This document shows positions 14,738 to 44,462 of a stretch of 64,000 nt of DNA, piece after piece (position 1 is the stretch's first letter; every line of letters begins with the position of its first letter). The notes under the pieces were generated by a model that had not been told where the DNA came from, made no database searches, and saw only the letters and a list, made by a program, of their open reading frames with translations. Both the position numbers and the translations under genes were made by a program. The stretch is from Alphaproteobacteria bacterium (lineage in GTDB: Bacteria; Pseudomonadota; Alphaproteobacteria; UBA7887), in the NCBI GenBank assembly GCA_965200095.1, contig OZ241350.1, positions 694,853 through 758,852 on the forward strand, given 5' to 3'.

Positions 14738-14937
14738 CCGCCGCCGTTGCGTCATATCCGGGGTTTCGCGTCGGCCGGCGGGCGCGCCGACCGCCATGAC
14801 GGGAACCGGCGGCGCGAAAAGGTCGACGCGGCCTGCGGCGCCTGTTCGTCGGCGGCGCCATGACGGCGGTTCGCCACGCCGTTCGCCGAAGAACCGAAAG
14901 AGTATGAGAAGCCCGGGCTAATTCTCAACGTCTGCGC

Positions 14938-16188
14938 TTATAGCCGCGTCCGTCCAGGCCAGTACGCCGAGACATCGAATTCAAACAACTCTTTTTTTGA
15001 ATTACGCTTCCGAATGGCCCTGCATTTAATATTCTCAAATTCCAAACGTTCCAGCATCGCAGCGTATATCTGCTCTACGGGCAGTAACACGTCATAAAAT
15101 TTGGAATTCCCGACAATATAATGCAATTCGGCGCTGTCGTTCAACATTGGAATCAGTGAGTTGAAGTGCTTCCACATATCCTCGATATATTTCGCTACAT
15201 AGTTCGCCAATATCTTTCCACTCTTGTTATCGCTGCGCGCTATTCCGTCCAACGCGGTATCGATCATCGGATGTCCGAACGCCCCCGGCGGACGTTCCCA
15301 GTCCCCCAACCTGCTGGTTGCAATGCCCCATGTGCCGCCTATCGCCGACCAGTCCAGCTCGCCGGCATCCCGGCTATTTTGTAGAAAACCAAGCCAGTAC
15401 ATATACGGTCGCAGCTCACGGATATACGACATCCGGTTCGCATATGGCGGAGACGTAATCACCAGATCGAAAAACCCTTCCACGCACTTCGGTAACATTC
15501 TCGCGTCCCCGAATACGACGTGGCTCATTCCCTCCGGGCTTTCTTCCGCACCTCCCAATACGACTCGCACGTCTTCGCGAAATACGTCGCCCATATCGAT
15601 CTCGAACGGGATATACAATTGATCATCATACTTAAAGGACATCGACTGGTGGTTGAAGGCCGCGTTAGACAGTGCGATCAGAGTTCTGCAGAATGCCACC
15701 AGCAGCAGATCGCGTTCCGGAGATTTCGGTTCGCTCTCCACCTCAATGCCGGCCTTGAGTTTGCAAAGAAATTCCAAAGCATCCGGACGCCACCACCTCT
15801 CGATATTGCGAATAGGAGGGGCCGCCGCGGCGCCAACCGTTCCCCGCTTTACAACTCCGATGATCCGGTCGCATGCGCTGCGAACTGCGTCTATCGCGGC
15901 TCCAGTGTATCGTGTCGTCTTCGCCCGACCGAACCAAATCAGGAACGGATTGATATCCGTTGTCACCCCTTCGTGTCCATGATACGCAGCACTTAACGCT
16001 GTTGTCGCTGTTCCGCAGAATGGGTCCAAAACTCTTAACGGCTGCTCATGCCGCTCCGTCAATTCCTCGACCATCTTGACGGAGTATGCCGGTGTGAGCC
16101 GCAGCCAGCCATGACGCCCGATGTTCGTGTTGAACTTATGCGTGTAGTCGGCTCTCTGTCGCAGCTTTTCGCCATGAACCACGCTCAT
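14938..16188 (-). CDS. DNA methyltransferase (N6-adenine/N4-cytosine amino-MTase, SPPY motif)
   Basis: 416 aa. Motif I-like VLDPFCGTATTA near the N-terminus and motif IV LVITSPPYANR in the middle. Low GC. ATGA overlap with the downstream gene. Confidence 0.8.
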   Translation of the reverse strand: MSVVHGEKLRQRADYTHKFNTNIGRHGWLRLTPAYSVKMVEELTERHEQPLRVLDPFCGTATTALSAAYHGHEGVTTDINPFLIWFGRAKTTRYTGAAIDAVRSACDRIIGVVKRGTVGAAAAPPIRNIERWWRPDALEFLCKLKAGIEVESEPKSPERDLLLVAFCRTLIALSNAAFNHQSMSFKYDDQLYIPFEIDMGDVFREDVRVVLGGAEESPEGMSHVVFGDARMLPKCVEGFFDLVITSPPYANRMSYIRELRPYMYWLGFLQNSRDAGELDWSAIGGTWGIATSRLGDWERPPGAFGHPMIDTALDGIARSDNKSGKILANYVAKYIEDMWKHFNSLIPMLNDSAELHYIVGNSKFYDVLLPVEQIYAAMLERLEFENIKCRAIRKRNSKKELFEFDVSAYWPGRTRL

Positions 16189-16874
16189 GTCGCCTCCGGA
16201 GACAAAAGAACGTTCAGAACTGTATCTATTTCTTGACGGAGAATGGATCTGTTCCGCTCAAAAAACGCCGCCAAATCATATCCAACGACGTCGCGCATGA
16301 AATCATAGGTCGATATCGAGGGATCTCCCGCACCCATGACCCCGGTGATAACCGACCATTTTTCAGAGCGATATCGCATCAATATATCCCCGTCGATTTG
16401 CCCCGACAAAATCACGGCGCAAGGGAGGTAACCCTTCGTATAAGCTGTGGCTGCGTTTGCGATATCCGCATTCTGCCGCTTGGAATCTTTGCTCTTGTAT
16501 CCCTGTCGCACTTCAAAAACCGCGCCCGTCAACCCCTCTAGAACATCATCGTCAACGTCCAGCATCTTCGCGGAGTTACGCATCCATCGATGAAACGAAT
16601 TTCGCTTGTCGTTATCACCGATTCTTTCGAGAGGAACTCGGCCGTCCATATACAATGTCCGCTTCCGGCCGCTCGTCGATGTTACCCGATACGACCAAAT
16701 CACGTCTTTCTCAGACAGCCCCAGAAAATCTTTTATGGCGCGGCGAAAGACTTTTTCGCAGCCAATCCCGATCTGGCGATAAATGCTTGTCATTCCGCCC
16801 GCTGCCCTGTGGGCGGCGTACATCATGGGATTGTCCAGGCCGAACCAGCTGTAGAAAACGTCTTTTCGATACAT
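16185..16874 (-). CDS. putative type II restriction endonuclease (partner of the MTase)
   Basis: 229-aa low-GC ORF immediately upstream of the MTase, translationally coupled (ATGA), with a good SD (AGGAG). No recognisable family. Call rests on operon context and a possible PD-(D/E)xK-like DVDDDVLEGLTGAVFEVRQGYK. Confidence 0.45.
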   Translation of the reverse strand: MYRKDVFYSWFGLDNPMMYAAHRAAGGMTSIYRQIGIGCEKVFRRAIKDFLGLSEKDVIWSYRVTSTSGRKRTLYMDGRVPLERIGDNDKRNSFHRWMRNSAKMLDVDDDVLEGLTGAVFEVRQGYKSKDSKRQNADIANAATAYTKGYLPCAVILSGQIDGDILMRYRSEKWSVITGVMGAGDPSISTYDFMRDVVGYDLAAFFERNRSILRQEIDTVLNVLLSPEAT

Positions 16875-16889
16875 CTCCTGGAATTGGTT

Positions 16890-18072
16890 TAGTGTCCCGC
16901 TTCTGAAGTTCGCATGATAATGTGTGTGATTATGTGGCTTGTGTGGAGGTCATGGGATGGGGCGTCGTGCGGGTCGGCCGGTTGCGTCCGTGGTGTTGAG
17001 CGACGAAGAGCGGTCGTATCTTGAGCGCCGGGTTCGCGGTCGTCGCGTTGGGCGTGCGCTTGCGGAGCGTTGCCGCATCGTCCTGCGTTGCGCCGATGGT
17101 TTGACGAACAAGGCGGTTGCTGCGGAAGTCGGCGTGCATGAACACACTGTCGGCAAGTGGCGTCGTCGTTTCCTGAAGGATCGCGTTGAGGGGTTGTCGG
17201 ACGCACCGCGTTCGGGGCGTCCGCGCAGCATAGAAGACGCCCGGGTGGCCGAGGTTGTCCGGCGGACGCTCGACGCGTCGCCGGTCGACGCCACCCATTG
17301 GTCGATCCGCTCGATGGCCCGGGAAGTGGGGCTTTCCCCGGCGTCGGTGCAACGGATCTGGAAGGCGTTCGGTCTGCAACCGCACCGGTCGGAGACGTTC
17401 AAGCTTTCCGGCGACCCGCAGTTCGTGGACAAGGCGCCGACATTGTCGGCCTCTATCTGTCGCCGCCGGATCGCGCGCCGGTGCTCTGCGTCGACGAAAA
17501 GAGCCGGATACAGGCGCTCGACCGCACCCGGCCCGTCCTGCCCATGACGCCGGGCATGGCCGAGAGGCGAACCCACGACTATCGGCGCAACGGGACGACC
17601 TCGCTGTTCGCCGCCCTCGACATCGCCACCGGTTTCGTTATCGGCAAGTGCTACAGGCGTTATCGGTCCCGGGAGTTCCTCTCCTTCCTCAAGGAAATCG
17701 ACGCCCATGTTCCCGATGACCTCGATATTCACATCGTCATGGACAACTACGCCACCCACAAGACCGCAGCGGTGAAATCCTGGATGGCGCGGCGTCCGCG
17801 CTATCGTGTTCACTTCACGCCGACCTCGGCGTCCTGGATCAATCGGGTGGAACGCCGGTTCGCCGAACTGACGCGCAAGCAGCTGCAAAGGGGCGCGCAT
17901 AACTCGACGAAACAGCTTGAAGCGGATATCCGCTCTTTTATCGACAAGCACAACCGGAACCCCAAACCCTTCAGGTGGACGAAATCCGCCGACGACATCC
18001 TCGCATCCGTCAAGCGCTTCTGCCATCGCGTCGAGCATACCCTATGCCACGAACTTTAGAGGCAGGACACTA
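16890..18072 (+). mobile_element. IS630-family insertion sequence, copy A
   Basis: 22-bp terminal IRs tagtgtcccgcttctgaagttcgc / rc tagtgtcctgcctctaaagttcgt, flanked by TA. Transposase in two overlapping frames. Identical copy inverted at 60684-61867. Confidence 0.85.
16939..18059 (+). CDS. IS630-family transposase (two overlapping frames, frameshift or pseudogene)
   Basis: N-terminal HTH (VGVHEHTVGKWRRRF) and a C-terminal DDE domain (HIVMDNYATHK ... SWINRVERRF). Confidence 0.8.
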
Positions 18073-18074
18073 GC

Positions 18075-18923
18075 CCAGGACTCATAACCGGAATATGACG
18101 GTTGCGGCGATGCAGATGGCGCTGAAGAAGGTGTGCGCGCAGCGGTCGTATCGCGTGGCAATGCGTCGCCAGTCCTTGAGCCGACCGAACATGCGCTCGA
18201 CGAGGTTGCGTTGCCTGTAGAGCCCGGCGTCGCAGGCGACCGGCTTCTTGCGGTGCGCCCGCCCGGGGATGCAGGGGGCGATTCCCCGTCCCTCCAGGGC
18301 TTCGCGGAAGCGGTCGCTGTCGTAGCCCTTGTCGCCAATCGGGACATCGGCGTCCGGCGGCAAGGCGTTGAACATCATCGCGGCTCCGCGATGGTCGCTG
18401 ACCTGCCCTTCGGTCAGCAGCATGATCGGGGGCTTGCCGTCGCCGTCGCAGACCGCGTGCAGTTTCGAGTTGAGGCCGCCCCGGGTGCGTCCGATACAGC
18501 GCGAAAGAGCCCCTTTTTTAGCAGACTGGCTGCGGTGCGGTGCGCCTTCAGATGGGTGGCGTCGATTATCGCTGTCCCCGTCGCCCGGCCCTCCGCCGCC
18601 AGGGCCGCGAAGATGCGGTTGAAGACGCCGGCCTCGCTCCACCGCACGAAGCGGTTGTAGAGGGTCTTGTGGGGACCGTATTCGGAGGGCGCGTGACGCC
18701 GGATGAGGCCGTATCGGATCACGTGGATGATGCCGGAGATGACGCGCCGGTCATCGACCCGGGGCACGCCGCGGACCTTGTTGGGCAGCAGCGGCCGGAT
18801 GCGGTCGAATTGAGCCTCGGAGAGCCAGACTTGGTGGTCGGACATGGTGCACCCCCTGTATCTGGTGGCAGCACACCACATACCCCAACCCAACGCAACC
18901 CCCTTTATGGGTACTGAGCCTGG
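18075..18923 (-). mobile_element. IS5-family IS, copy 2 (abuts IS630 copy A)
   Basis: Same IRs and ORFs as copy 1; proteins about 99% identical to copy 3. Confidence 0.85.
18082..18845 (-). CDS. IS5-family transposase OrfAB (frameshifted)
   Basis: MSDHQVWLSEAQFDRIRPLLPNKVRG... / ...DKGYDSDRFREALEGRGIAPCIPGR... Confidence 0.8.
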
Positions 18924-19316
18924 TCGCCGAGCGTTGAAGATACGCCGCGAAATCGCGGAACGTTTTCGTCTTCTTGATATCGAGAAGACGGAAAGACTCG
19001 CTGAAGGAATTACGCCCTTCCAGCGTGCGGGTCACGAGTGCATGACCGAAGCGGCGTCCGACGCGCATCTTGAGAGTTGGATAGAAATTCCCGCCGCTCG
19101 GTCGCGGACGCGATCGCAACCGTTCAAGCTCGGCGTCGTATGCGATATGGAATTGCCGTTCGGTGAGATCTCCAACATCGTAAATGCGGCGCAAGATAAC
19201 CAGTGTGCTTACCTTGAAGCGCAGGGCGATTCAATGAAGCGATGGGCCATAGGGGGTGACAGGATTTTCGGGACGATATACAAGGTGTTGTGGGTTTGGT
19301 TTCGAGGGTGTCCAGG

Positions 19317-20481
19317 ATGTCGGCTTCCGAGGGTTCGGGCGAGAGTTTGTGGGATGTTTTGGGCGAGATACCGGATCGCCGCGGGGCGAAGGGGCGTCGG
19401 TATTCGTTGCGTTCGGTTCTGGTTCTGACGCTTGCGGCGATGCTTTCGGGGGCCAACGACCTGCGCGCGGTGTATCGCTGGGGCCGTCGGCTGCCGGAGG
19501 ATGCGTTGTCTGTTCTGGGTCTGTCGGATGCTCCGCGCCATGCGACGTATCGCTATTTTTTCAAGGCGCTGGATGTGGAGGCGGCGGAGCGTGTGCTGGG
19601 GTCGTGGGCTTGCGGCTGCGATGCTCCGGGTCATGTTGCTCTGGACGGCAAGCGCCTGCGGAGCAGCGCGCCGGCGGGTCACGACGGGCGCAAGGGGGTT
19701 CATCTTGTGTCGGCGTTTGCCGGTCGTCCGGGGGCTGTGATTGGGCAGTTGCGGGTTGCGCCGGAGGGCAACGAGGCGACGGCGGCTCTGGCGTTGCTCA
19801 AGCGTCTGCCTCTCAAGGGTGCGGTTGTGACCGGCGATGCGGCGTTTTGCCGGCGCGCCCTGTGCGAGGCGATCCGCGACGGGGGCGGCGACTATTTGTT
19901 CGCCGTCAAGGCGAACCGGCCGGGTTCGATGTCCGACATCGCCGTTTCCTTCGGCGATGCTTTTCCCCCCTGAGCTGAACGCGGCGCTGGGCGGCGCTTC
20001 GCCGCAGGCCCTCCTGGCCGCCCCGCCGCCCGACGTCGAATATGCCGAGACCGTGGAGAAGGGCCATAGCCGCATCGAGATGCGCCGCCTTGCGCTGTCG
20101 TGCGAGGTCGTGCCCCATCGGCCGGGTGCGGCCCGGGTCTGCCGCATCGAGCGGACCTGTGAGCGCGCCGGCAAGACCTCCCGCGCGGTTTCCTGGGCGG
20201 TGACGAGCCTGCCCCGGGCCCGCGCCGGCCCGGAAGAGCTGCTCGCTCTCGTCCGCGAGCACTGGGGCATCGAAAACCGCCTCCACTACCGCCGCGATGT
20301 CGCCTTGCGCGAGGATGCGAGCCGTATCCGCGCCGGCAACGCGCCGCAGGCGCTGGCGGCGTTGCGGAACACCATGCTGCGGCTTGTGCATTCCCTGCCG
20401 GGTCCGCTTGCCGCGATCCGCGAAGCCTTCGCGGAAGACCGTCCCCACGCCATCGCCACCGCAAAATACGGGGTTCTTTGA
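19317..20481 (+). pseudogene. ISAs1-family (H-repeat-associated) transposase, split into two frames
   Basis: N-terminal ESLWDVLGEIPDRRGAKGRRYSLRSVLVLTLAAMLSGANDLRAVYRWGR and C-terminal EHWGIENRLHYRRDVALREDASRIRAGNAP are ISAs1 hallmarks. The reading frame breaks around 19840-19970. Confidence 0.7.
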
Positions 20482-20489
20482 ATTGCCCT

Positions 20490-21361
20490 GCCTTGAAGCG
20501 CCGCGCCATGCGCTGGAGCTCGGCCTGCAAGTCCTCTCCCCCTCGATATTCGTCGCGCACGACCGAAAGCGGAGCGAGCAGCTCCGCCGCAACCCGGTTG
20601 CACCAGGATTCGATCTCGTCCGTCGGCGCAGAGTCGGGGCGGCTGTCGGAAAGCGCGGTCTCTCCGAGCCAGAGATGCGCGAGCTCGTGCGCCAGCGTGA
20701 ACATTTGCGCGGCCTTCGTGTCGGCGCCGTTGACGAAAACGAGGGGGGGGGGGGGGGCGAAATCGTCGGCCAGCGCAAACCCCCGGAACTCCTCTGGATC
20801 GAGCTTGCGGCGAGTGTGGCTGCCGACGATGCCGGACACCATGACCAGGACGCCGAGCTCGTCCGCCTGCTCGATGAAGCGGCGCAACGCCTCCGTCCAG
20901 GTCCGGAGGTCGCGCCATTCCTCCAGATCGAACCCGAGCGCCCTGCGCATCCGCGCCGCGACCGTTTCGACATCGTCCGTCAAGCGGGCCGAACCGACGA
21001 ACGGCAGCGGGTCTTCCCCCTCGGAGCGGGCGAACTCCCGGTACCAGTCCTGGCGCTGCTGGCAGAAATAGATCGTGTGGAGGAGGTTCAGGCTGGGCCG
21101 GCCGACCGGCGCGCCGCCGACGGTGCGGAAATCAGGGATCGGGAACGGTTCGTCGGGCGGCTCGGACGTGAAGAAATATCCGACTCCGGCGTGCACGGTC
21201 TTCGCGAATTTCTCGAGCTGTTTGAGGGTCGGGCGAACATCGCCGTTCTCCCACTCGCGGTATCTGGGGAATTTGCGGACCAGCGCGTCCACGCTTACCC
21301 CGGCGCGCTCGCGGCCCCAGCGCAGCATCTCCGGTTTGACATCGACGCGGAAGGTGGTCAT
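20490..21361 (-). CDS. HTH + ImmA/IrrE-family (M78) metallopeptidase-like protein; 3' end probably disrupted by ISAs1
   Basis: ATG 21361 (GGGGG SD). HExxH in FTLAHELAHLWLGE. The N-terminal region resembles the HTH of IrrE-like proteins. Open frame reads through into ISAs1 with no natural stop; a possible 3' remnant lies on the minus strand at 18924-19194. Confidence 0.5.
20743..20757. repeat. G15 homopolymeric tract inside the ImmA-like coding sequence (encodes APPPPL on the minus strand)
   Basis: Counted directly: gag + 15 g + cga. Confidence 0.9.
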
Positions 21362-21690
21362 CGCCGCCCCCATTTGCGGAAATGCCGCAGCACGTCCTCG
21401 AGCCGCGCGCCATAGTCCCACTTTTCGTGAAAGGTCTCGAAGATATGGACGAGCTGCGCTTCTTTCAAGCCGTAGAGGCGGGCGGCGACGGCGTCGAGTT
21501 CGTGGATCATGTCGTCTTTCTCGTCCGCCGCGAGGGGCCCGCAATCGACCCCGACGGCCCCGGCCCAGGCGGCGAAACGGTCGTCCGGGCAAGCGAGACG
21601 CCCGGCGAGCTCGACGACGCGCCGCCATGGGGCGTCGTCGCGCCCGGGACGGGGGATCGGGAAGCAGTTGAATATGAAGTATGAGACCTC
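21358..21690 (-). pseudogene. C-terminal fragment resembling the end of Eco57I/PglX-type methyltransferases (..LDAVAARLYGLKEAQLVHIFETF..)
   Basis: Only the last 60-110 aa look protein-like; upstream it runs into the hairpin-repeat cluster. The LYGLTxEEI-type terminal motif is known from Type IIG/BREX MTases (from memory). Confidence 0.3.
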
Positions 21691-22185
21691 TGCATAACCG
21701 GTTTCGCTTGCCGCAGGATCGTCTTCCCGCGTCTTTACAACGCTCCCGAACTCACCGGCAGAGCATAACGATGTATATCGAACAATACTTCCATTCCCGC
21801 GAAAGAGCGTGTGAAGAAATCGGACGGCTCTCATCGTGACGGACGGATCGCCGAAGTAACGGAATTGTAAAAACAATAACCACCGAATAGTACTTCGTCA
21901 TTCCCGCGAAAGCGGGAATCCGGAGGCGGCCGTCCGCTATATCGGCCCGTTTTTCTTACGGAAACGCCGCAAACAGATTCCCGCTTTCGCGGGAATGACG
22001 AGTATTTGTAAGGCCGTCCTATTTCTTCACATGCTGTTTCGCGAGAATTACCGAGGCAGGGGGCGGATGTTCCCAATTCCGTCACGCATCGTCATACGCC
22101 GACGGCGGGTTCGGAAACGTCGCGAAACGCCGGGAACACAATCCTGCTACAGGCGAAACGAGTTATGCAGAGGTCTCAAGTATGT
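21690..22185. repeat. cluster of REP/MITE-like hairpin repeats (core gtcattcccgcgaaagcgggaatc palindrome)
   Basis: Multiple direct and inverted copies of ttcccgcgaaagcgggaa hairpins and associated 60-100-bp modules. Homologous clusters at 41560-42750 and 61880-62545. Confidence 0.6.
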
Positions 22186-23617
22186 AACATTGGTTTCGAC
22201 GAACCGCCTCGCATACCAGTCGAGCGGTATCGAACAGAGAATTCCGAGCAGAAACGCCTCGTCTTTCTCATCGCCGCGCGGCCAAAGCAGATACGGCCCT
22301 TTGTGGGTGATGAATATCCCGGGCGGCACGAGACAGGCGATCACCGTTCGCGAGCCGAAGCCCTCGCTACATCTCGGAACGCGATCCTCGGCGCAAAGCA
22401 CGGCAAGGTGGACCTGTCACGCAGGTGCTCCCGGCGACGCGCGCGGCGAGCTCCTGCGCCTTCTGCTTCAGCGACCGCCGCCTGTAGGCGTCGTTGAAGC
22501 GGTAAGGCAGGAGGTCCCGGTCCTCGGCATAGGCGATGAACAACAGGCGGAACAGGACCGTCAGCGCCATCTCGTAAGCGCGCGCGAGTTCCCCGGGCGA
22601 CGGCGCGGCGAGGTTGCGCGCGGCGGCCATGCCCCGCGCCAGCGTGGGGACGACGCGGTCGTAGATCCGCTCCCGCAGGCGCTCGGCCAGACCGCCGGAG
22701 AAACGGCGGGAGTCCGCCAGTATCCGGTCGAGACTCCCGCCGGGCGTCAGGGCCTCCGCCGAGTAGAGCAGCCAGAGACAGGGCAGATGCTCGTCCGCCA
22801 GCAGCGGCGGCTGGCACTCGACCCAGGTCTCCGTGCGCCCGCGCCGGCCGACCCCCGCATCGACATCGGCGGCGTAGAGGCGCAAGCGGCTCCCCTGCGT
22901 GAGGAGCGCCCAGCGAAGGTTCTCGTCGTCGGCTTTCTTGAGCGCGTAAGAAACCGGCGACAGGCTGTTGAAACGCCGGTTCGCGGCTTCCGGCGATTCG
23001 TTCTCCCGCAGCATCACCGCCAGCGCGGCGCTGCGGTCGCCGGCGCGCAGCCGCCAGGTCAGGTTGTCGATCCGCTCGACCCGGAAGCCGAGCGCGGCCA
23101 GAAGCTCGCCGTCGCGCTTGCCGAGCGCGTTCGCCGCCTTGCGTTTGGCAGCCGCCCAGTCGTCGCGCCGCGGAACGCCATGCTGGAGTTCGTGCAGGGC
23201 GAGAAGCCCTTCGTTGGCGATCCCGGGCAAGGCGGTTTCCAGCGACGGCAGCGCCTGCGACAGGAAGCGCAGCGCCGCGTGCCGGTCGGGCTGACCGAGG
23301 GCCTCGCGGCACAGCCGTTCGACGCGATCCGCATCCATGCCGGTATGGACCGGCGGCGCTTCGCCGGCGGCGCCGCACAGCGCCGCGCCCCCGGAATGCA
23401 GCACGACCAGAAGAACGGGCGCCGGCCGGCCCTTGCGCCGGGCTTTCCATGCCTCCAGCAGCGCCGTCCGTCCGGGGGCCCGGGGAGCGCGGGCGACCGC
23501 GACCTCGAGCGCATTCGCGCCGGCGCCGAGGAACAGCCCCGCCGCCGCGAAGCCGCTCCCGGCCCGCGGCGACCAGTGCCGGGGCGCGAGATCGGCGAGG
23601 AATCCGCTTCCTTCCAT
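22147..23617 (-). pseudogene. remnant of a large Type IIG R-M / BREX PglX-like gene: about 400-aa N-terminal part plus out-of-frame TaqI_C-like fragment
   Basis: Frame A (23617 to 22367) ends ..LFRLLFIAYAEDRDLLPYRFNDAYRRRS, the helical linker motif preceding the MTase domain in Eco57I/MmeI/PglX-type proteins. A different frame at 22401 to 22147 encodes FLLGILCSIPLDWYARRF (TaqI_C-like). The entire MTase core is missing. Confidence 0.35.
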
Positions 23618-23824
23618 CGCGATGCGCTGTCCTGCAAAATGCGGGGCCGGTCGGCGCGCGACACGGACGGTCGTTCGAATCCTGTCGGCGGCGTCTTCTC
23701 GCACCGTTCTTTCGGAGACGCCACCCCTGCCGCTATCGTTCCCGGACGCAACGGCTTGCCGGGGGGCGGGCGGATTGCGTAGGGTGCGCGCCTTCGTGAG
23801 GTTTCGGCAAGGGAGGACGCGGCG

Positions 23825-24736
23825 ATGACCGGGTTCGAGCCGTTCGCGGGCGTGTTGCCGCCCGTCGTCACCCCGTTCGACGAAGATCTGGCGCCCGACC
23901 GCGCCGCCTTCGTCGCGCATTGCCGGCGGTTGCTCGAACAGGGCGCCGACGGACTCGCGGTGTTCGGCACCACCGGCGAGGCGAACTCGCTGTCGGCGGA
24001 CGAACGCATGGCGCTGCTGGACGCGCTGACGGAGGACGGCATCGACGCCGCCGCGCTGATGCCGGGGACGGGGTGCTGCGCGCTCCCCGACACGGTGCGG
24101 CTGACGCGCCATGCGCTCGACGCCGGTTGCGGCGGCGTGCTGACGTTGCCGCCGTTCTACTACAAGGGGGTGAGCGACGACGGGGTGTTCGCCAGCATCG
24201 CCGAACCGATCGAGCGTATCGGCGACGCGCGTTTGCGGGTCTATCTCTACCACATCCCGCCGATGGCCGGGGTCGGGTTTTCGCTCGATGTCGTGGGGCG
24301 CCTGATCGAAGCCTACCCGCAGACCGTCGTCGGGTTGAAGGACAGTTCGGGGGACTGGAGCAACACCGGGGCGCTGATCCGCGCGTTTCCGGGCTTCGCG
24401 GTGTTTTCCGGGTCGGAAGTTTTCCTGCTCGCGAATCTGCGCGCCGGCGGCGCCGGCTGCATCACCGCAACCGGCAATGTGAACCTCGCGAATATCCGCG
24501 GGCTCTACGCGCGCTGGCGGACGCCCGAAGCCGACGCCCTGCAAGCCGAAATCACCGCGTTGCGCGAAACCGTGCAGGCGCGGCCCATGATCCCGGCGCT
24601 CAAGGCGATTCTCGCGGCCCATACCGGCGCGCCGGGGTGGGCGCGGGTGCGGCCGCCGCTCGCAGCGCTGGACGCGGCCGCCGCGGCGGCGCTCGCCGGG
24701 GCGCTGGCCGCGCACGGTTTCGCTCTCGCCGCGTAA
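23825..24736 (+). CDS. dihydrodipicolinate synthase family lyase (DapA-like)
   Basis: 303 aa. FGTTGE motif, and YxxP...K-type class I aldolase fold residues. Confidence 0.85.
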   Translation: MTGFEPFAGVLPPVVTPFDEDLAPDRAAFVAHCRRLLEQGADGLAVFGTTGEANSLSADERMALLDALTEDGIDAAALMPGTGCCALPDTVRLTRHALDAGCGGVLTLPPFYYKGVSDDGVFASIAEPIERIGDARLRVYLYHIPPMAGVGFSLDVVGRLIEAYPQTVVGLKDSSGDWSNTGALIRAFPGFAVFSGSEVFLLANLRAGGAGCITATGNVNLANIRGLYARWRTPEADALQAEITALRETVQARPMIPALKAILAAHTGAPGWARVRPPLAALDAAAAAALAGALAAHGFALAA

Positions 24737-24761
24737 CGCCGGCGGCGCGCCGGACCCGGCG

Positions 24762-25280
24762 ATGGTCCTGTCCCTCGAGGCCGTGCGCGCGCTCGCGCCG
24801 CCGGGGCGCTATTTCGCGCTGGCGGGGCTTTGCTCCGCGGGAATGCTGGCGACGGCGCTGGGGTTCCAGTATCTCGGCGGCCTCGCGCCCTGCGAATTGT
24901 GTCACTGGCAGCGCGTCCCCTACGCGGCGGTCGTCGTGCTGGCGGCGGCCGGCCTGCTGCTGCGCGGGCGACTGTCGCCGGGGGCGACGACGGCGTTCGC
25001 AGCCGGGTGCGCGGCGCTGTTCTTCGCCGACGCCGCCATCGCCGGCTTCCATGTCGGGGTCGAACAGGGCTGGTGGGCCGGAACCTCGAGCTGCGCCGCC
25101 GCCGATGCGCCGGCGGACGATCTGGACGCGCTGCGCGACGCCGTGTTCGCCGCGCCCGCGGTCTTTTGCGACGCGGTGGCGTGGTCTTTCGCGGGGCTGT
25201 CCATGGCGGCGTGGAACGGCCTCGCGGCGCTGGCCCTGGGCGGCGCGTCGGCGGTTGTCGTCGCGGGGCGGCTGCGGTGA
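24762..25280 (+). CDS. dsbB: disulfide bond formation protein B
   Basis: 172 aa, four TM helices; CELCHWQR redox motif and a second Cys pair. Confidence 0.8.
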   Translation: MVLSLEAVRALAPPGRYFALAGLCSAGMLATALGFQYLGGLAPCELCHWQRVPYAAVVVLAAAGLLLRGRLSPGATTAFAAGCAALFFADAAIAGFHVGVEQGWWAGTSSCAAADAPADDLDALRDAVFAAPAVFCDAVAWSFAGLSMAAWNGLAALALGGASAVVVAGRLR

Positions 25281-25849
25281 GGCGGCGGCCGCTGCCGGGC
25301 GACCTTGCCGGCGCGGATCTGCGGGCGCGCGCGCTGCGCGTCGATCACGCCGGCGAGCTGGCGGCGGTGCGCATCCTTGAAGGCCAGCTCGCCGTGCTCG
25401 GCGACGCCCCGGCGGCGCCGCCGATCCGCGAGATGGCGGCGCAGGAACGGCGTCACCTGGAAACCTTCGAGCGCCTGGTCGCGCGCGACCGGGTGCGCCC
25501 GACGGTCCTGGCGCCGCTGTGGCATGCGGTCGGGTTCGCGCTCGGCGCCGCGTCCGCGCTCGCCGGTCCGCGCGCGGCGATGGCGTGCACAGCCGCCATC
25601 GAGGAAGCGATCGAGACGCATTACGCGCGTCAGATCGCGGCGCTGGAAGCGGACCCCGACGCCGACCGCGAGGACGGCGAAGACGGCGGGGAGCGGAGGC
25701 TGAGCGCGGTGCTGAGAGCGTTCCGGGACGACGAGATCGCCCATCGCGACGCCGCGCGGGCCCACGGCGCGGACGCTGCGCCGGCGCCGCTCGGAGCGCT
25801 GGTGCGCAGCGGCTGCCGCGCGGCGATCCGGCTCTCCGAACGGTTCTGA
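25277..25849 (+). CDS. coq7: demethoxyubiquinone hydroxylase (Coq7 family)
   Basis: GTG start overlapping the dsbB stop (GTGA). Motifs LRVDHAGELAAVRILEGQ and EExEHL-like diiron ligands (EEAIETHY, DDEIAHRD). Confidence 0.75.
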   Translation: MRRRPLPGDLAGADLRARALRVDHAGELAAVRILEGQLAVLGDAPAAPPIREMAAQERRHLETFERLVARDRVRPTVLAPLWHAVGFALGAASALAGPRAAMACTAAIEEAIETHYARQIAALEADPDADREDGEDGGERRLSAVLRAFRDDEIAHRDAARAHGADAAPAPLGALVRSGCRAAIRLSERF

Positions 25850-25865
25850 GCGGCGGGAGAGGCGC

Positions 25866-27866
25866 ATGACGGTTTCCGAACACGCGGACACGGTCGATCT
25901 GGCGGCGGCGGCGTCGCGGGCCGGCGGCGCGGTGTCGCCGGAGGCGCTCGGCGACTTCCTGCGCGGCGCGGCGGCGGCGCCCGAGGGGCCGGACCCGGAC
26001 GCCTGGATCGACCTTGTCGCGCCGGAGGCGGACGCGGCGCTGCGGGCCCGTCTGCGCCGCGCGCGCGAGGCGGCGCGGGCCGTCCCGGCGGCGGCGCCCG
26101 ACCGCGCCGCGAGGCTCGCCCGGCTGCGCGGCGAACTCGCCCGGCGCGGGCTCGACGGGTTCATGGTCCCGCGCGCCGACGAACATCAGGGCGAATGGGT
26201 CCCCCGGCGCGCCGACCGCCTCGCCTGGATCTGCGGCTTCACGGGGTCGGCGGGCGTGGCGGCGGTGCTGCGCGAACGCGCGGCGCTGTTCGTCGACGGA
26301 CGCTACACGCTACAGGCGGAAAGCGAAGCGGCGGAAGAATTCGAGCGGGCGGCGCCGGGCGACCTGCCGGATTGGCTGGCGTCCGCCCTCGGGGCCGGCG
26401 CGCGGCTCGGCTACGACCCGTGGCTGCACACCCGGCGCGGGCGGGAGACGCTCGAGGCCGCGTGCGAACGCGCCGGCGCGTCGCTGATTCCGGTCGGGGA
26501 CAACCCTCTGGATGCGGTGTGGGAGGACCGGCCGCCGCCGCCTATCGCCCCGGTCGTCGCGCATGAGGAGCGCCATGCGGGGCGGAGCGCCGCCGACAAG
26601 CGCGCCGCCTGCGCCGCGGAGCTGGCGCGCGAGGGGCTCGACGCCGCGGTGCTCACCCTGCCGGACTCGATCGCGTGGCTGCTCAACCTGCGCGGCGGCG
26701 ACGTGGCCTTCACGCCGCTGGCGCTGGCGTTCGCGGTCCTGCGCGTCGACGAGACGGTCGACCTGTTCATCGACCGGCGCAAATTGTCGCCGGGCGTGGC
26801 CGCGCATCTCGGCGCCGGCGTGCGCGCGCATGAGCCGGCGGCGTTCGAGGCGGCGCTGCGGGGGTTGCGCGGGCGCGTTGCGGCGGACCCCGACAGCGCC
26901 GCCGAACAGGTGTTCCGCGCGCTCGCGGCGGGGCGCGCCGAGGCGGTGGAAAGCGCCGACCCCTGCGTGCTCGCGAAAGCGGTGAAGAACGCCGTGGAGC
27001 TCGACGGCGCGCGCGCCGCCCATCGCCGCGACGGCGCGGCGCTGGCGCGGTTCCTGCGCTGGCTCGACGAGAACGCGCCGCGCGGCGGAGTCGACGAGAT
27101 CGCCGCCGCGGACCGTCTCGAGGCCGAGCGCCGCAAGGACGCGGATTTCCGCGGACCGAGTTTCCCGACCATCTCCGGCGCCGGGCCGAACGGCGCAATT
27201 GTCCACTACCGCGTGAGCGCGGAGAGCAACCGTCCCCTCGCGCCGGGGACGTTCTACCTGGTGGATTCGGGGGGGCAGTATCCGGACGGGACGACCGACG
27301 TAACCCGCACCGTGGCGGTCGGGACGGCGGACGCGGAAATGCGCGACCGCTTCACGCGCGTGTTGAAGGGGCATATCGCGCTGGCGCGGGCGCGGTTTCC
27401 CGCCGGCGCGACGGGGGCCCGACTCGACGCGCTGGCCCGCGCGGCGCTGTGGCGGGCGGGCCTCGACTATCGTCACGGGACCGGCCACGGGGTCGGCAGC
27501 TATCTCGGCGTGCATGAGGGGCCGCACGCCATTTCCCCCGCGGCGACGGACATAGCGCTGCGGCCGGGCATGATCGTCTCGAACGAACCCGGCTACTACA
27601 AGACCGGCGCGTGGGGGATTCGCATCGAGAACCTCGTCGCCGTCGTCGAAAGCGCGGAGGGCGAGGCGGGCGATTTCCTCGAATTCGAGACTCTGACGCT
27701 GGCGCCCATCGACCGCCGGGCCATCGACCTCTCCCTGCTGGAGGATGGGGAACGGCGATGGCTCGACACCTATCACGCGCGCGTTTTCGCGGCGCTCGCG
27801 CCGCTTCTCGACAGCGTCGACGCGGCCTGGCTGGAAGCGGCCTGCGCGCCGCTCGCCGCGGGTTGA
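25866..27866 (+). CDS. pepP: Xaa-Pro aminopeptidase (M24B, PepP family)
   Basis: 666 aa; HGTGHGVGSYLGVHEGP and the EPGYY pita-bread motifs. Confidence 0.85.
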   Translation: MTVSEHADTVDLAAAASRAGGAVSPEALGDFLRGAAAAPEGPDPDAWIDLVAPEADAALRARLRRAREAARAVPAAAPDRAARLARLRGELARRGLDGFMVPRADEHQGEWVPRRADRLAWICGFTGSAGVAAVLRERAALFVDGRYTLQAESEAAEEFERAAPGDLPDWLASALGAGARLGYDPWLHTRRGRETLEAACERAGASLIPVGDNPLDAVWEDRPPPPIAPVVAHEERHAGRSAADKRAACAAELAREGLDAAVLTLPDSIAWLLNLRGGDVAFTPLALAFAVLRVDETVDLFIDRRKLSPGVAAHLGAGVRAHEPAAFEAALRGLRGRVAADPDSAAEQVFRALAAGRAEAVESADPCVLAKAVKNAVELDGARAAHRRDGAALARFLRWLDENAPRGGVDEIAAADRLEAERRKDADFRGPSFPTISGAGPNGAIVHYRVSAESNRPLAPGTFYLVDSGGQYPDGTTDVTRTVAVGTADAEMRDRFTRVLKGHIALARARFPAGATGARLDALARAALWRAGLDYRHGTGHGVGSYLGVHEGPHAISPAATDIALRPGMIVSNEPGYYKTGAWGIRIENLVAVVESAEGEAGDFLEFETLTLAPIDRRAIDLSLLEDGERRWLDTYHARVFAALAPLLDSVDAAWLEAACAPLAAG

Positions 27867-27870
27867 GGAG

Positions 27871-28686
27871 TCAGTCGGCAGGGCCGGCCGAGTCGCGCAG
27901 CGCGGCGAGAAACTTCTCGATACGGGCGGCGTTGACGCCCACATCCGACCGGCCGACGCGGCTCTTGCTGCGCATGTCGACCTTCGAGCCGCCGGCCCGG
28001 GGGGCGATGCGGATGACGATGTCGTCCTTGAACTCGTAGAAGCGGCTGGTGTCGACGGCTTCGATCCGCAGGGCGGCGGGGTCGGCGGCGACGATCTCCC
28101 AGCCGCTGGCCTCGGCGAGGGCGAGCGCGTGTTCGAAGGTTTCCAGCGGCGGGGCGACGACGGCAAGCGGTCGGACGCCGGGATATCCGGCGCGCTGCTG
28201 CAACGCTGCTTCGGCGCCGGGGTGTCCGGGCGGATTGCTCGCGCCTTCGGCGCTGCGCCGCTCGAGCAGCGCCAGAAACGCCGGCGGGTCTTCCAGGTCG
28301 GTGGAGATGTCGTGGATGAAGGGGCTGGTGCGCACGGTGGCGTAGCGCTCGCCGATGAGGCCCGCGGCGGCGACCCCGGCGACAATGCCGACGAGGGAGA
28401 TAACCGCGCCGCGCCGCGCGCCGCCGGGGAGCGAGGCGCCGAGACCGATGAGGCCGACGACGACCGCGCCGGCCCCGGCCAGGGCGGCGTAGCGGCTGAG
28501 CGTCAACAGCGCGAAGCCATAGTCCCAGCGGCCCTCGCGATAGCCCCAGGCGGCGACCCACAGGGCCGCGAGCGCGGCGACGCCGGCGAGACAGGCGAGG
28601 GTTCCGAGAGCGGTCAGACGTTTCTCGCCGTGAATGCCGCTGGCCATGCTCGCCCTCCCGAATACGGCGGATGCGGAGTCGATCAT
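27871..28686 (-). CDS. DUF1499-like membrane protein
   Basis: Two N-terminal TM helices followed by a soluble domain. ATG 28686 chosen over the ORF-track start at 28719. Confidence 0.5.
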   Translation of the reverse strand: MIDSASAVFGRASMASGIHGEKRLTALGTLACLAGVAALAALWVAAWGYREGRWDYGFALLTLSRYAALAGAGAVVVGLIGLGASLPGGARRGAVISLVGIVAGVAAAGLIGERYATVRTSPFIHDISTDLEDPPAFLALLERRSAEGASNPPGHPGAEAALQQRAGYPGVRPLAVVAPPLETFEHALALAEASGWEIVAADPAALRIEAVDTSRFYEFKDDIVIRIAPRAGGSKVDMRSKSRVGRSDVGVNAARIEKFLAALRDSAGPAD

Positions 28687-28809
28687 GCGCGCGCCGCCGC
28701 GGGATTGCAATCGCCGCATCGACGGCGCATCGACAGTCCGTTGACAGGCTGGGCGCCGCGGCTATAGTCGCGGCTTGCGAAAGACGGGGGCGCGAAGCGC
28801 GGCGCAACG

Positions 28810-29151
28810 ATGTATGCAGTCGTGAAAACCGGTGGCAAGCAGTACCGGGTGTCGAGGAACGACGTGATCAAGGTCGAAACCCTCCCCGGCGCGGCCGGAG
28901 ACCGGGTGACGCTCGGCGACGTGCTCATGGTCGTGGACGGCGCAGAGGTGCGTATCGGCGCGCCCATGGTGGCCGGGGCGTCGGTGGCGGCGACCGTGCT
29001 CGAGCAGATGCGCGAGGACAAGATCGCCGTATTCAGGAAAATCAGGCGCAAGGGCCATCGCCGCAAGCGCGGACACCGCCAGGCGAAGACGGTGTTGCGC
29101 ATCGGCGATATCGACCCGGGCGAGTCGGGGAGCACGCGCGATGGCGCATAA
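28810..29151 (+). CDS. rplU: 50S ribosomal protein L21
   Basis: [14 protein letters not shown]... classic L21 N-terminus. Confidence 0.95.
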
Positions 29152-29422
29152 GAAAGCGGGCGGGAGTTCGCGCAACGGCCGCGATTCGGCGGGAAGGCGC
29201 CTCGGCGTCAAGAAATACGGCGGCGAGATCGTGATCCCGGGGAACATCATCGTGCGCCAGCGCGGCACGCGGTTCCACCCCGGAAGTCACGTGGGGATGG
29301 GCCGCGACCACACGCTGTTCGCGACCGCGCCGGGCCGGGTCGCCTTCCGCCGCGGGCGTCGGGGCCGCACCTACGTGTCGGTGGACGCCGCGGGCGCTGC
29401 CGCGGCGAACCCGGGCGGCTGA
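29141..29422 (+). CDS. rpmA: 50S ribosomal protein L27
   Basis: [29 protein letters not shown]... classic L27. Confidence 0.95.
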
Positions 29423-29480
29423 CCTCCCCTCCCGCTCCGCACGAGCGGGGCGGCGTCCGCGACGGGCGGGCGAAACGGCG

Positions 29481-32952: not shown

Positions 32953-32986
32953 CCGGCGCCGCGACGTTCGCACAGGGAGGACCGCC

Positions 32987-34117: not shown

Positions 34118-34124
34118 CCGCGCG

Positions 34125-35780: not shown

Positions 35781-36025
35781 CGGCGGCGACGATCAAGCCG
35801 CCAACCGCGACCATTCGTACGGTAAGGTGGGTTTCGAGCGCGGCGACATCGGCGCGCAGGGCGGCGCGCAAGGCTTCAAGGTCTGCTTTGGTGGCGAGCC
35901 CCGGCGTGTCCTTGACGGATCGCCCTTGCGACAGCTTCCGCCGGTTCCTTTCCGATCCCGGACGCTTCGAGGTCGCGCGCAACTGCGAGCGTATCGAAAT
36001 CGGCATCGCGTTCCGTGGCCTCCAT
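35767..36025 (-). pseudogene. small DUF1640-like gene split by a 1-nt frameshift (low confidence)
   Basis: N-terminus MEATERDADFDTLAVARDLEASGIGKEPAEAVARAIRQG in one frame; C-terminus ATKADLEALRAALRADVAALETHLTVRMVAVGGLIVAAVKLL (TM tail) in another. The frames meet around 35885-35900. Could be a sequencing error. Confidence 0.25.
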
Positions 36026-38983: not shown

Positions 38984-38999
38984 CCGCGCGCGGGCGGCG

Positions 39000-41406: not shown

Positions 41407-41559
41407 AGATGCCGATCGGCGCACGAACGGAATCCGGTTCGGGCAACGCCGCGGGACGGCGGGCGCGCGCCTTTCTCGTTTCGCCGCGAAACTCGTGAAC
41501 TGCGATAACCGCCGCGCGCCGGGCGGCCGACAAGGGCGGATACCGGATGAGCCCCCTTC

Positions 41560-44449: not shown

Positions 44450-44462
44450 CCGCCCGCGCCGA

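What the first reader, a model, noticed from the sequence alone, without database searches (positions are those of the whole stretch)
14938..16891. Low-GC type II R-M pair with IS630 inserted 16 bp upstream of the endonuclease start
The REase and MTase genes are translationally coupled (ATGA) and markedly AT-richer than the neighbours. The MTase has motif I (DPFCGTATT) before motif IV (SPPY), which is not the common beta-class order. The left IR of IS630 copy A begins 16 bp upstream of the REase ATG. That insertion displaces the native promoter and may silence the R-M or drive it from an IS outward promoter.
Basis: partly seen in the sequence, partly recalled or inferred. Interest (0 to 1): 0.55.

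Follow-up and report, generated by a model that had tools for sequence, protein, structure and literature searches.

The report
Restriction gene beheaded by IS630
This is a horizontally acquired restriction-modification gene pair whose restriction gene has lost its first 36-37 codons and its promoter to a mobile-element insertion, leaving only the methylase gene intact, which is a common way such systems are disarmed.

Summary
The two minus-strand ORFs, their ATGA overlap, the low GC (0.50-0.57 against 0.67-0.77 in the flanks), the motif I-before-motif IV order in the methyltransferase and the adjacent IS630-family element are all real.

The central reading is wrong. The ATG at 16874 is not the endonuclease start. 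Homologues are almost all 271 aa, while the window ORF has 229 aa. A 97%-identical intact copy in metagenome contigs aligns with the window only as far as the IS630 terminus. The element sits at the TA of the Leu37 codon, inside the coding sequence.

The first 36 codons, the ribosome-binding site and the promoter are absent from the whole 64 kb. The far end of IS630 abuts an IS5-family element, so a second rearrangement followed the insertion.

The 416-aa methyltransferase is full length and keeps every invariant residue. It has its own Shine-Dalgarno sequence, but I found no promoter conserved across the family.

Best reading: a recently disarmed type II R-M cassette, with a dead endonuclease and a stranded, possibly still active, solitary alpha-class methyltransferase. 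This is an ordinary event.

The cassette family is widespread (more than 15 phyla, R-M synteny in 83 of 83 loci). Its endonuclease has no Pfam or NCBIfam family and no sequence-detectable solved structure.

The parts
14938..16188 (-). Intact 416-aa DNA amino-methyltransferase gene (stop included). Motif I DPFCGTATT is at aa 55-63 and motif IV SPPY at aa 246-249, with about 180 aa between them (alpha-class order).
   Evidence: ORF. Homologues are 411-416 aa, the best being P0121 (98% identity, 416 aa). All invariant columns of alignment A2 are retained. PADLOC MTase_II PDLC03389 matches at 1.6e-20 over residues 16-399. The alignment to the beta-class structure 2zie is permuted.
16185..16889 (-). 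Remnant of the restriction endonuclease gene: codons 38-271 plus the stop codon. The longest ORF left starts at internal Met43 (ATG 16874-16872, 229 aa).
   Evidence: PADLOC REase_II PDLC03512 matches at 2.2e-71, but only to profile positions 47-273 of 276. Homologues are 271 aa. tblastn with P0001 matches residues 36-271 only. DNA is 97.4-97.5% identical to L001-L003 up to the IS terminus.
16890..16891 (.). TA target dinucleotide at the IS630 end. It is also positions 2-3 of the Leu37 codon (CTA) of the endonuclease gene, so it marks the break point.
   Evidence: The intact copy L001 reads GATTGACGC-TA-AACCAATTCCAGGAGATG. The window reads GCGGGACAC-TA-AACCAATTCCAGGAGATG. The IS630/Tc1/mariner group inserts at TA and duplicates it (PMC8533490).
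16892..18070 (+). IS630-family insertion sequence, 1179 bp. Terminal inverted repeats are at 16892-16912 and 18050-18070. The transposase is split into two frames (16939-17547 and 17298-18059), which is a frameshift or programmed frameshift. It is transcribed away from the R-M genes.
   Evidence: Pfam HTH_29/HTH_32 and DDE_3. NCBIfam NF033545 IS630 matches profile positions 1-129 and 126-299. Ends and TA flanks were read directly.
18073..18920 (-). IS5-family element directly abutting the far end of IS630 (only the TA at 18071-18072 lies between them). It occupies the place where the 5' part of the endonuclease gene should be.
   Evidence: NCBIfam NF033580 IS5 and Pfam DUF4096 and DDE_Tnp_1_2. 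A third copy, 96% identical, lies at about 7014-7862 with TA flanks.
14889..14937 (-). Non-coding tail of the acquired cassette, downstream of the MTase stop codon. Homology to the intact cassette in other genomes ends here.
   Evidence: blastn of L002 and L003 against the window aligns 16896-14889 at 97.4%. The flanks beyond that are unrelated.
16193..16197 (-). GGAGG Shine-Dalgarno sequence 4 nt upstream of the MTase ATG. MTase translation therefore need not depend on translation of the endonuclease remnant.
   Evidence: Read directly from the sequence.
16381..16409 (-). The only sigma-70-like site upstream of the MTase on its strand (TTGTCG-17-TATATT, 9 of 12 matches). It lies inside the endonuclease remnant and is a candidate fortuitous MTase promoter. 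It is not conserved in the family.
   Evidence: The same position scores in only 2 of 83 related loci. Any hit in the 300 nt upstream of the MTase start occurs in 10 of 83 loci, against 6 of 83 in a control interval.
59810..61867 (-). Second, inverted, 100%-identical copy of the IS630 + IS5 + 27-nt flank block. It lies just downstream of alaS and shows that this block was duplicated recently.
   Evidence: the repeat finder pair I1: 2058 nt, 100% complementary. Sequence read. alaS identified.

Best explanation
A low-GC type II restriction-modification cassette of about 2.0 kb or more (endonuclease gene, then methyltransferase gene, overlapping by ATGA) was acquired horizontally by a bacterium with about 70% GC. 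An IS630-family element then inserted at the TA of codon Leu37 of the endonuclease gene. The 5' 108 nt of that gene, its ribosome-binding site and the operon promoter are no longer next to it. Instead, the other end of the IS630 abuts an IS5-family element.

The simplest history, which is inferred, is an IS630 insertion followed by a deletion. The deletion could arise by recombination between two directly oriented IS630 copies, or as an IS630-mediated adjacent deletion.

Consequence, also inferred: the endonuclease is null. What remains can encode at most a protein lacking residues 1-42. That missing segment is conserved across the family, and the remnant has no promoter and a Shine-Dalgarno-like AGGAG with no spacer before the ATG.

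The methyltransferase gene is intact and has its own Shine-Dalgarno sequence, so the locus is now a solitary alpha-class amino-methyltransferase gene. I rate the chance that it is still transcribed at about 0.45-0.5, because the family shows no conserved internal promoter and only one non-conserved sigma-70-like site lies upstream of it.

The event is recent. The two IS630-IS5 blocks are 100% identical, and neither the remnant nor the methyltransferase gene has acquired a frameshift or stop codon.
For: - Length: the top 120 of 4276 homologues are almost all 271 aa, against 229 aa here. The PADLOC REase_II profile is matched only from position 47.
- Break point: P0001 reads ...GLTLNQFQEMYRKD, and the window encodes (L)NQFQE in frame upstream of its ATG.
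- DNA identity of 97.4-97.5% to three contigs with intact cassettes stops exactly at the IS630 terminus and its TA.
- No trace of residues 1-35 anywhere in the 64 kb.
- The N-terminal 36 residues are present in 94% of aligned family members and are about as conserved as the rest of the protein (top-residue frequency 0.56 against 0.64). Pro24 and Gly27 are nearly invariant. The AlphaFold model places a confident helix at residues 3-21.
- In nearly all 83 related loci the match begins within the first 7 residues, and the MTase gene follows within 0-36 nt in all of them.
- The MTase is intact: 416 aa, 98% identical to P0121, all invariant residues present.
- IS630 family identity and TA flanks.
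- IS5 abuts the far end of IS630, and the block is exactly duplicated.
- No outward promoter-like site in the IS.
- Foreign origin: the GC contrast, and the same cassette at a different chromosomal site in L002 and L003.
Against: - No expression, methylation or cleavage data exist, so loss of endonuclease function is inferred from sequence only.
- The remnant ORF is undamaged (7 non-synonymous and 14 synonymous codon differences from L002). An active truncated protein is therefore not formally excluded.
- The missing 5' part could survive elsewhere in the genome, outside the window. That would make the second event a translocation or inversion rather than a deletion.
- The promoter scan is a crude consensus match. 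It did not even detect the transposase promoters, so absence of a hit is weak evidence.
Confidence: 0.85

Rival explanations
1. One reading: the R-M pair is intact, and IS630 sits 16 bp upstream of the endonuclease start codon. It would silence the operon or drive it from an outward IS promoter.
For: An ATG at 16874 is preceded by AGGAG, and a 229-aa ORF is open. The IS terminus is 17 nt away.
Against: - Homologues are 271 aa, and the reading frame and homology continue upstream of that ATG to the IS end.
- AGGAG has no spacer before the ATG and encodes Gln41-Glu42 of the intact protein.
- No outward promoter-like site was found.
- The transposase gene points away from the R-M genes.
Confidence: 0.03
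2. The truncated endonuclease (lacking residues 1-42, starting at Met43) is still made and active. The locus would then remain a working, if re-wired, R-M system.
For: - The remnant ORF is intact.
- The putative catalytic residues lie downstream of the break (Asp119, Glu163, Lys169).
- The MTase is intact, as a live endonuclease would require.
Against: - Loss of a conserved N-terminal helix and the YKPKFGxG loop.
- No promoter and poor Shine-Dalgarno geometry.
- MTase intactness is equally explained by the recency of the event (100%-identical IS copies).
Confidence: 0.05
3. The whole cassette is now transcriptionally dead. With the operon promoter gone, the MTase is not expressed either, and it is intact only because too little time has passed for it to decay.
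For: - The family has no conserved internal promoter: 2 of 83 loci score at the window's site, and any hit occurs in 10 of 83 loci against 6 of 83 in a control interval.
- The R and M genes overlap or nearly touch in all loci, which implies co-transcription.
- Two terminator-like hairpins on the minus strand inside IS630 would oppose read-through.
- The IS copies are identical, so the event is recent.
Against: - A 9-of-12 sigma-70-like site lies about 190 nt upstream of the MTase start in this copy.
- The MTase has its own GGAGG.
- AT-rich foreign DNA in a high-GC host often carries spurious promoters (general knowledge, not tested here).
Confidence: 0.4
4. The 5' part of the endonuclease gene was not deleted. 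It was moved by recombination between IS630 or IS5 copies, or mis-joined in assembly across the 2-kb exact repeat. It would then lie outside the window next to another IS630 right end.
For: Two 100%-identical 2058-nt inverted IS blocks lie in the window, along with a third IS5 copy, which gives ample substrate for inversion or translocation. One block carries 27 nt of extra flank, so it did not arise by simple transposition.
Against: - Neither flank of the second block encodes endonuclease residues 1-36.
- The predicted 5'-junction sequence was not found in JGI metagenome contigs, although the window's own junction was not found there either.
- The window is contiguous through both repeat copies, which argues against a collapsed short-read assembly.
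Confidence: 0.25

Closest known systems
Type II restriction endonuclease family behind PADLOC model PDLC03512 (REase_II)
   Same: Strong full-domain match (2.2e-71, 238 bits) over residues 2-224. The gene is always followed by a DNA MTase gene.
   Different: The window copy lacks the part matching profile positions 1-46. No member with a known recognition sequence could be identified with the tools here. The family has no Pfam or NCBIfam model, and source databases name its members 'hypothetical protein'.
PD-(D/E)XK restriction enzymes of the EcoRII-C / Ecl18kI / PspGI / AgeI group, and the Card1 and Can2 nuclease domains
   Same: These are the best Foldseek hits for the high-confidence model of the full-length homologue (pLDDT 91.6). 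The model has an alpha/beta core, with conserved Asp119 on one strand and Glu163-x-Arg165...Lys169 on the next strand.
   Different: The similarity is weak (E 0.03-0.2, TM 0.33-0.37, no hit at E <= 0.001). Sequence and profile searches of the PDB find nothing. Assignment to this fold is likely but not shown, and no inference about specificity is justified.
Amino-methyltransferases of Pfam N6_N4_Mtase (PF01555), e.g. T. thermophilus TTHA0409 (2zie) and M.RsrI (1eg2), which are beta-class
   Same: The same motif I (DPFxGTxTT) and motif IV ((S/D)PPY) sequences align with these structures.
   Different: The order is circularly permuted relative to them. Motif I is at residue 55 and motif IV at residue 246, with about 180 aa between, which is the alpha-class layout. 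From my own knowledge, SPPY is more typical of N4-cytosine than N6-adenine enzymes, but the target base was not testable. Foldseek returned only generic class I methyltransferases.
Solitary ('orphan') methyltransferases derived from R-M systems by loss of the endonuclease gene
   Same: An intact MTase gene sits next to a disrupted cognate endonuclease gene. Loss of R before M is the order tolerated by the host (established knowledge of R-M addiction). Loci L081 and L083 show broken endonuclease matches in other genomes.
   Different: Here the disruption is very recent and its mechanism is visible (IS630 at a TA in codon 37). There is no evidence of conservation or a regulatory role for the MTase in this host.
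IS630 family (IS630/Tc1/mariner)
   Same: An HTH plus DDE_3 transposase matches NF033545, with 21-bp terminal inverted repeats and TA flanks on both sides.
   Different: The nearest plasmid-borne relatives are only about 72% identical in DNA (Bradyrhizobium and Rhizobium). The TA flanks here do not bracket a simple insertion, because the two sides are unrelated sequences.

Membership tests
Type II restriction-modification system | A DNA methyltransferase with an AdoMet-binding motif I and a catalytic (D/N/S)PP(Y/F) motif IV | tested here: met
   DPFCGTATT at aa 55-63 and SPPY at aa 246-249. PADLOC MTase_II models match down to 1.6e-20. Pfam N6_N4_Mtase and UPF0020 match weakly at motif I.
Type II restriction-modification system | An adjacent gene belonging to a recognised restriction endonuclease family | tested here: met
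   PADLOC REase_II PDLC03512 matches at 2.2e-71. R-M adjacency holds in 83 of 83 related loci.
Type II restriction-modification system | A complete endonuclease coding sequence with its own start codon and expression signals | tested here: not met
   Codons 1-37, the ribosome-binding site and the promoter are replaced by IS630. Nothing matching residues 1-35 is present in the window.
Type II restriction-modification system | Sequence-specific cleavage, and protection by cognate methylation | not testable with these tools
   This needs a methylome and biochemical assays.
Alpha-class amino-methyltransferase (N6A/N4C) | AdoMet-binding region (motifs X, I-III) at the N-terminus, then a long target-recognition insert, then the catalytic region (motifs IV-VIII) | tested here: met
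   Motif I is at residue 55 and motif IV at residue 246. The alignment to beta-class 2zie is permuted: query 52-92 aligns with chain 238-278, and query 220-250 with chain 20-51. Motifs other than I and IV were not mapped individually.
Alpha-class amino-methyltransferase (N6A/N4C) | Identity of the methylated base (N4-cytosine or N6-adenine) | not testable with these tools
   The SPPY motif only hints at N4-cytosine, and that rests on my own knowledge. Foldseek was uninformative.
PD-(D/E)XK nuclease fold | An alpha/beta core with Asp on strand 2 and (D/E)xK on strand 3, and structural similarity to solved members | tested here: inconclusive
   The confident model (pLDDT 91.6) has conserved Asp119 and Glu163-Val-Arg165 on consecutive strands. 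The top Foldseek hits are PD-(D/E)XK nucleases, but all have E >= 0.028 and TM <= 0.37.
IS630 family insertion sequence | IS630-type HTH plus DDE transposase | tested here: met
   NF033545 matches at 4.8e-29 (positions 1-129) and 2.5e-46 (positions 126-299). Pfam DDE_3 matches at 6.6e-20.
IS630 family insertion sequence | Terminal inverted repeats, and insertion at TA with TA on both flanks | tested here: met
   GTGTCCCGCTTCTGAAGTTCG and GTGTCCTGCCTCTAAAGTTCG match at 18 of 21 positions (my count). TA lies at 16890-16891 and 18071-18072. The TA rule is taken from PMC8533490.
Solitary (orphan) DNA methyltransferase | An intact MTase gene without a functional cognate endonuclease gene | tested here: met
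   at the sequence level only.
Solitary (orphan) DNA methyltransferase | The MTase is expressed and methylates the genome | not testable with these tools
   Only one non-conserved sigma-70-like site was found.

The most novel reading that the evidence does not exclude
The cassette may belong to an as-yet uncharacterised type II specificity. Its 271-aa endonuclease has no Pfam or NCBIfam family and no sequence-detectable solved relative. It is nevertheless unusually conserved for a restriction enzyme (56-79% identity) across more than 15 bacterial phyla and one archaeal genome (a Nitrosopumilus MAG). It is always coupled to an alpha-class SPPY methyltransferase. In this host, the freshly stranded methyltransferase could persist as a new solitary epigenetic enzyme expressed from a fortuitous promoter.
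Probability: 0.12. Interest if true: 0.4.

Novelty: new member of a known kind. Interest (0 to 1): 0.2.

Why it matters
- It corrects an annotation trap. An internal Met preceded by a chance AGGAG, right next to an IS end, looks like an intact gene with a displaced promoter but is actually a beheaded gene.
- It shows, with the break point resolved to the base, the standard route by which an R-M system is disarmed (R lost, M kept) and a solitary methyltransferase is born.
- The locus lies in an IS-rich stretch where a neighbouring IrrE/M78-type gene has also been broken.
- It has little wider significance unless the methyltransferase proves active, or the widespread but unannotated endonuclease family proves to have a new specificity.

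Tried and rejected
- **Missing 5' part in the window.** tblastn with the full-length homologue and with its first 43 residues found nothing above chance.
- **Composite-transposon model.** If the two inverted IS blocks (16890..61867) had inserted as one unit into the endonuclease gene, the missing 5' part should lie beyond 61867. It does not.
- **Junction searches in JGI metagenome contigs.** I searched for the predicted endonuclease-5'/IS630 junction and for the window's own junction. Both gave 0 hits.
- **Sequence relatives of the endonuclease.** Pfam, NCBIfam and PDB searches by single sequence and by profile found none.
- **MTase model against the PDB with Foldseek.** Only generic class I methyltransferases came back (NNMT, PNMT, TrmN). 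This says nothing about N4 versus N6.
- **Plasmid and phage collections.** No homologue of the endonuclease was found, so no carrier element was identified.
- **Codon 37 as a recurrent IS hot spot.** Several cluster representatives start at residues 33-38. The one I checked (P0245) is a contig-edge fragment, so I dropped the idea.
- **Relaxed selection on the remnant.** There are too few differences to tell: 14 synonymous and 7 non-synonymous in the remnant, against 18 and 8 in the MTase.
- **Conserved internal MTase promoter.** The window's candidate site is not conserved (2 of 83 loci).
- **Outward or read-through promoter from the IS elements.** No promoter-like site was found. Two terminator-like hairpins on the relevant strand were seen, which is no more than chance expectation.
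- **Host identification via the IS DNA.** This gave only about 72% matches to Bradyrhizobium and Rhizobium plasmids. The window's genome is not among the GTDB representatives searched.
Full report
**What is at the coordinates.** Two ORFs lie on the minus strand, 16874..16185 (229 aa) and 16188..14938 (416 aa). They overlap by ATGA, with the ATG at 16188-16186 and the TGA at 16187-16185. GC is 0.50-0.575 in 400-nt windows over 14800-16999. It is 0.67-0.77 in the autotransporter gene to the left and 0.59-0.69 in the insertion sequences to the right. The 416-aa protein has DPFCGTATT at residues 55-63 and SPPY at 246-249. An IS630-family element occupies 16892-18070. It carries Pfam HTH_29, HTH_32 and DDE_3 domains, and matches NCBIfam NF033545 in two frames, profile positions 1-129 and 126-299. 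Its terminal inverted repeats, GTGTCCCGCTTCTGAAGTTCG and GTGTCCTGCCTCTAAAGTTCG, match at 18 of 21 positions by my count, and TA lies on each side. The descriptive part of the finding is therefore correct.

**What is wrong with it.** The ATG at 16874 is not the start of the endonuclease gene.
- A database search with the 229-aa ORF returned 4276 homologues, and the top 120 are almost all 271 aa.
- The closest, P0001 (97% identity), reads MSARDDEYLQIVLDAVRRCARYKPKFGRGSKADGLTLNQFQEMYRKD... The window ATG is its Met43.
- The window still encodes NQFQE in frame upstream of that ATG.
- tblastn of P0001 against the window matches residues 36-271 only. Nothing elsewhere in the 64 kb resembles residues 1-35.
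- At the DNA level, the contig carrying P0001 (L001) and two further contigs with intact cassettes (L002, L003) are 97.4-97.5% identical to the window from 14889 up to the IS terminus. Identity stops there. The intact copy reads ...GGATTGACGC-TA-AACCAATTCCAGGAGATG and the window reads ...GCGGGACAC-TA-AACCAATTCCAGGAGATG.
- The element therefore sits at the TA of the CTA codon for Leu37. TA is the target that the IS630/Tc1/mariner group recognises and duplicates (PMC8533490).
- The AGGAG that looks like a ribosome-binding site abuts the ATG with no spacer. In the intact gene it simply encodes Gln41-Glu42.
- In frame, a TGA at 16952-16950 inside the IS closes the frame. There is no alternative start codon before Met43 (read).

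**Is the upstream ORF really a restriction enzyme gene?**
- It matches PADLOC model PDLC03512 (REase_II) at 2.2e-71, but only from profile position 47 onward, which independently flags the truncation.
- It has no Pfam or NCBIfam family and no sequence relative among solved structures, by single sequence or by profile.
- An AlphaFold model of the full-length homologue, built from a 43-sequence alignment, is confident (pLDDT 91.6, pTM 0.88). It shows an alpha/beta core.
- The best Foldseek hits are PD-(D/E)XK nucleases (Card1, EcoRII catalytic domain, Ecl18kI, PspGI, AgeI, Can2, Kpn2I). They are weak, with E 0.03-0.8 and TM no higher than 0.37.
- Conserved Asp119 and Glu163-Val-Arg165...Lys169 lie on consecutive strands. 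This fits that fold, but the assignment stays inconclusive.
- The strongest functional argument is context. In all 83 related loci the gene is followed within 0-36 nt by a homologue of the 416-aa methyltransferase. These loci come from more than 15 phyla or major lineages, including Rhodothermales, Chloroflexota, Nitrospirota, Acidobacteriota, Spirochaetia, heliobacteria, Planctomycetes, many Proteobacteria and a Nitrosopumilus MAG.

**Does the missing part matter?**
- Residues 1-36 are present in 94% of aligned family members.
- They are about as conserved as the rest of the protein (mean top-residue frequency 0.56 against 0.64). Pro24 and Gly27 are nearly invariant, in a YKPKFGxG motif.
- The model places a 19-residue helix at 3-21, followed by this loop.
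- In nearly all 83 loci the match to the endonuclease starts within the first 7 residues.
- I infer that a product lacking residues 1-42 is inactive. That product would also have no promoter and poor translation signals. This is inference, not measurement.

**The methyltransferase.**
- It is full length (416 aa; homologues 411-416 aa; 98% identical to P0121) and keeps every invariant residue of a 27-sequence alignment.
- Motif I and motif IV align to beta-class N6/N4 methyltransferase structures (2zie, 1eg2) in circularly permuted order. About 180 residues separate the two motifs.
- Whether the enzyme makes N4-methylcytosine or N6-methyladenine could not be decided. From my own knowledge, SPPY favours N4-cytosine. 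The structure search returned only generic class I methyltransferases.
- The gene has its own GGAGG 4 nt before the ATG.
- Transcription is the weak point. The only sigma-70-like site on its strand is TTGTCG-17-TATATT at 16409-16381, inside the endonuclease remnant. That site is not conserved: 2 of 83 loci score at that position. Any hit in the 300 nt upstream of the MTase start occurs in 10 of 83 loci, against 6 of 83 in a control interval.
- No promoter-like site faces outward from IS630, and the transposase reads away from the R-M genes. Two terminator-like hairpins on the minus strand inside IS630 would oppose read-through, although their number is within chance expectation.
- I therefore put methyltransferase expression at roughly even odds.

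**History.** The far end of IS630 (TA at 18071-18072) abuts an IS5-family element (18073-18920), not the 5' part of the endonuclease gene. A plain insertion cannot give this arrangement, so a second event is required. The simplest is a deletion, either between two directly oriented IS630 copies or as an adjacent deletion from the IS630 end. That deletion removed the gene's 5' end, the promoter and an unknown length of DNA. The IS630 + IS5 block, plus 27 further nucleotides, recurs at 59810-61867. That copy is inverted and 100% identical over 2058 nt, and it lies just after alaS. Three observations point to recent events:
- the exact identity of the two blocks;
- the absence of stops or frameshifts in the remnant;
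- the unremarkable substitution pattern (14 synonymous and 7 non-synonymous codon differences from L002 in the remnant, against 18 and 8 in the methyltransferase).

Neither flank of the second block carries the missing segment. Exact-match searches of JGI metagenome contigs for either junction found nothing.

**Foreign origin.** Apart from the GC contrast, the same cassette (97.4% DNA identity over 2008 bp) lies at a different chromosomal site in L002 and L003. There it sits between a class I methyltransferase gene and an IalB-type gene, and its flanks have 70-80% GC. Homology to the window ends 49 nt past the methyltransferase stop codon, at 14889. No homologue of the endonuclease was found on catalogued plasmids or phages.

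**Comparison with known systems and verdict.**
- The locus works like, and descends from, a type II R-M system. As it stands it fails one defining feature of that class, a complete endonuclease gene, so it should be filed as an R-M remnant or solitary methyltransferase locus.
- IS disruption of the R gene with retention of M is the expected, host-tolerated order of loss, and it is a well-known origin of orphan methyltransferases. Loci L081 and L083 show broken endonuclease matches in other genomes, with the methyltransferase match complete in L081 and cut short in L083.
- The finding is real but ordinary, and its central interpretive claim is mistaken.
- What remains mildly interesting is the cassette family itself. 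It is very widely distributed and unusually conserved for a restriction enzyme. Its endonuclease is named 'hypothetical protein' by the sources and has no curated family or close solved structure.

Noticed in passing
window 16890-18947 and 59810-61867: A 2058-nt block is repeated at 100% identity in inverted orientation 40.9 kb apart. It comprises IS630, IS5 and 27 nt beyond the IS5 end. Because non-IS flank is included, one copy arose from the other by segmental copying or recombination, not simple transposition. The direction is unresolved. The second copy lies about 35 nt after alaS (57097-59775).
   Followed up: partly
window 18948-21628 (minus strand), with 19290-20481 (plus strand): An IrrE/Peptidase_M78-type gene with an HExxH motif and an XRE-like N-terminus is interrupted by an ISAs1-family element, whose own transposase is split between two frames. 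Its 3' end runs into the IS5 element. A second accessory gene in this stretch has thus been broken by insertion sequences.
   Followed up: partly
window 50071-52518 (minus strand): An 815-aa NACHT-domain NTPase (Pfam NACHT, 5.4e-12) sits in a sharply low-GC island (0.48 against about 0.70). It may be a horizontally acquired STAND-type defence gene.
   Followed up: no
window 4334-6921 and about 7014-7862: A low-GC (0.56-0.58) pair of genes, ThiF-family E1-like (520 aa) and DUF2971 (379 aa), lies immediately next to a third IS5-family copy. That copy is 96% identical to the other two and has TA flanks within CTAG.
   Followed up: no
window about 21870-22180, 41600-42740 and 61900-62540: Families of short dispersed repeats, direct and inverted, contain the unit tcgtcattcccgcgaaagcgggaatc. 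They look like REP-type intergenic repeats.
   Followed up: no
window 8014-8575 and 11845-13487: There is a 42-nt tandem array of about 10 or more copies, and there are 249-nt and 303-nt tandem repeats inside the 1714-aa autotransporter gene (9593-14737). The autotransporter gene converges on the R-M cassette.
   Followed up: no
loci L004-L083 (related genomes): The R-M pair occurs at 56-79% endonuclease identity in more than 15 phyla plus a Nitrosopumilus MAG. By their names, several appear to be sponge-associated MAGs (Poriferihabitaceae, Entotheonella). Cultured carriers include Thiocystis violacea DSM 207 and Bradyrhizobium viridifuturi SEMIA 690. In loci L081-L083 the endonuclease and/or methyltransferase matches are broken.
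   Followed up: partly
L002 9189-11251 and L003 3155-5217: Intact cassettes 97.4% identical to the window copy sit between a class I methyltransferase gene and an IalB-family gene, near argG and rlmN, in a high-GC metagenomic bacterium. About 400 nt of non-coding DNA lies upstream of the endonuclease gene and presumably holds the native promoter.
   Followed up: partly
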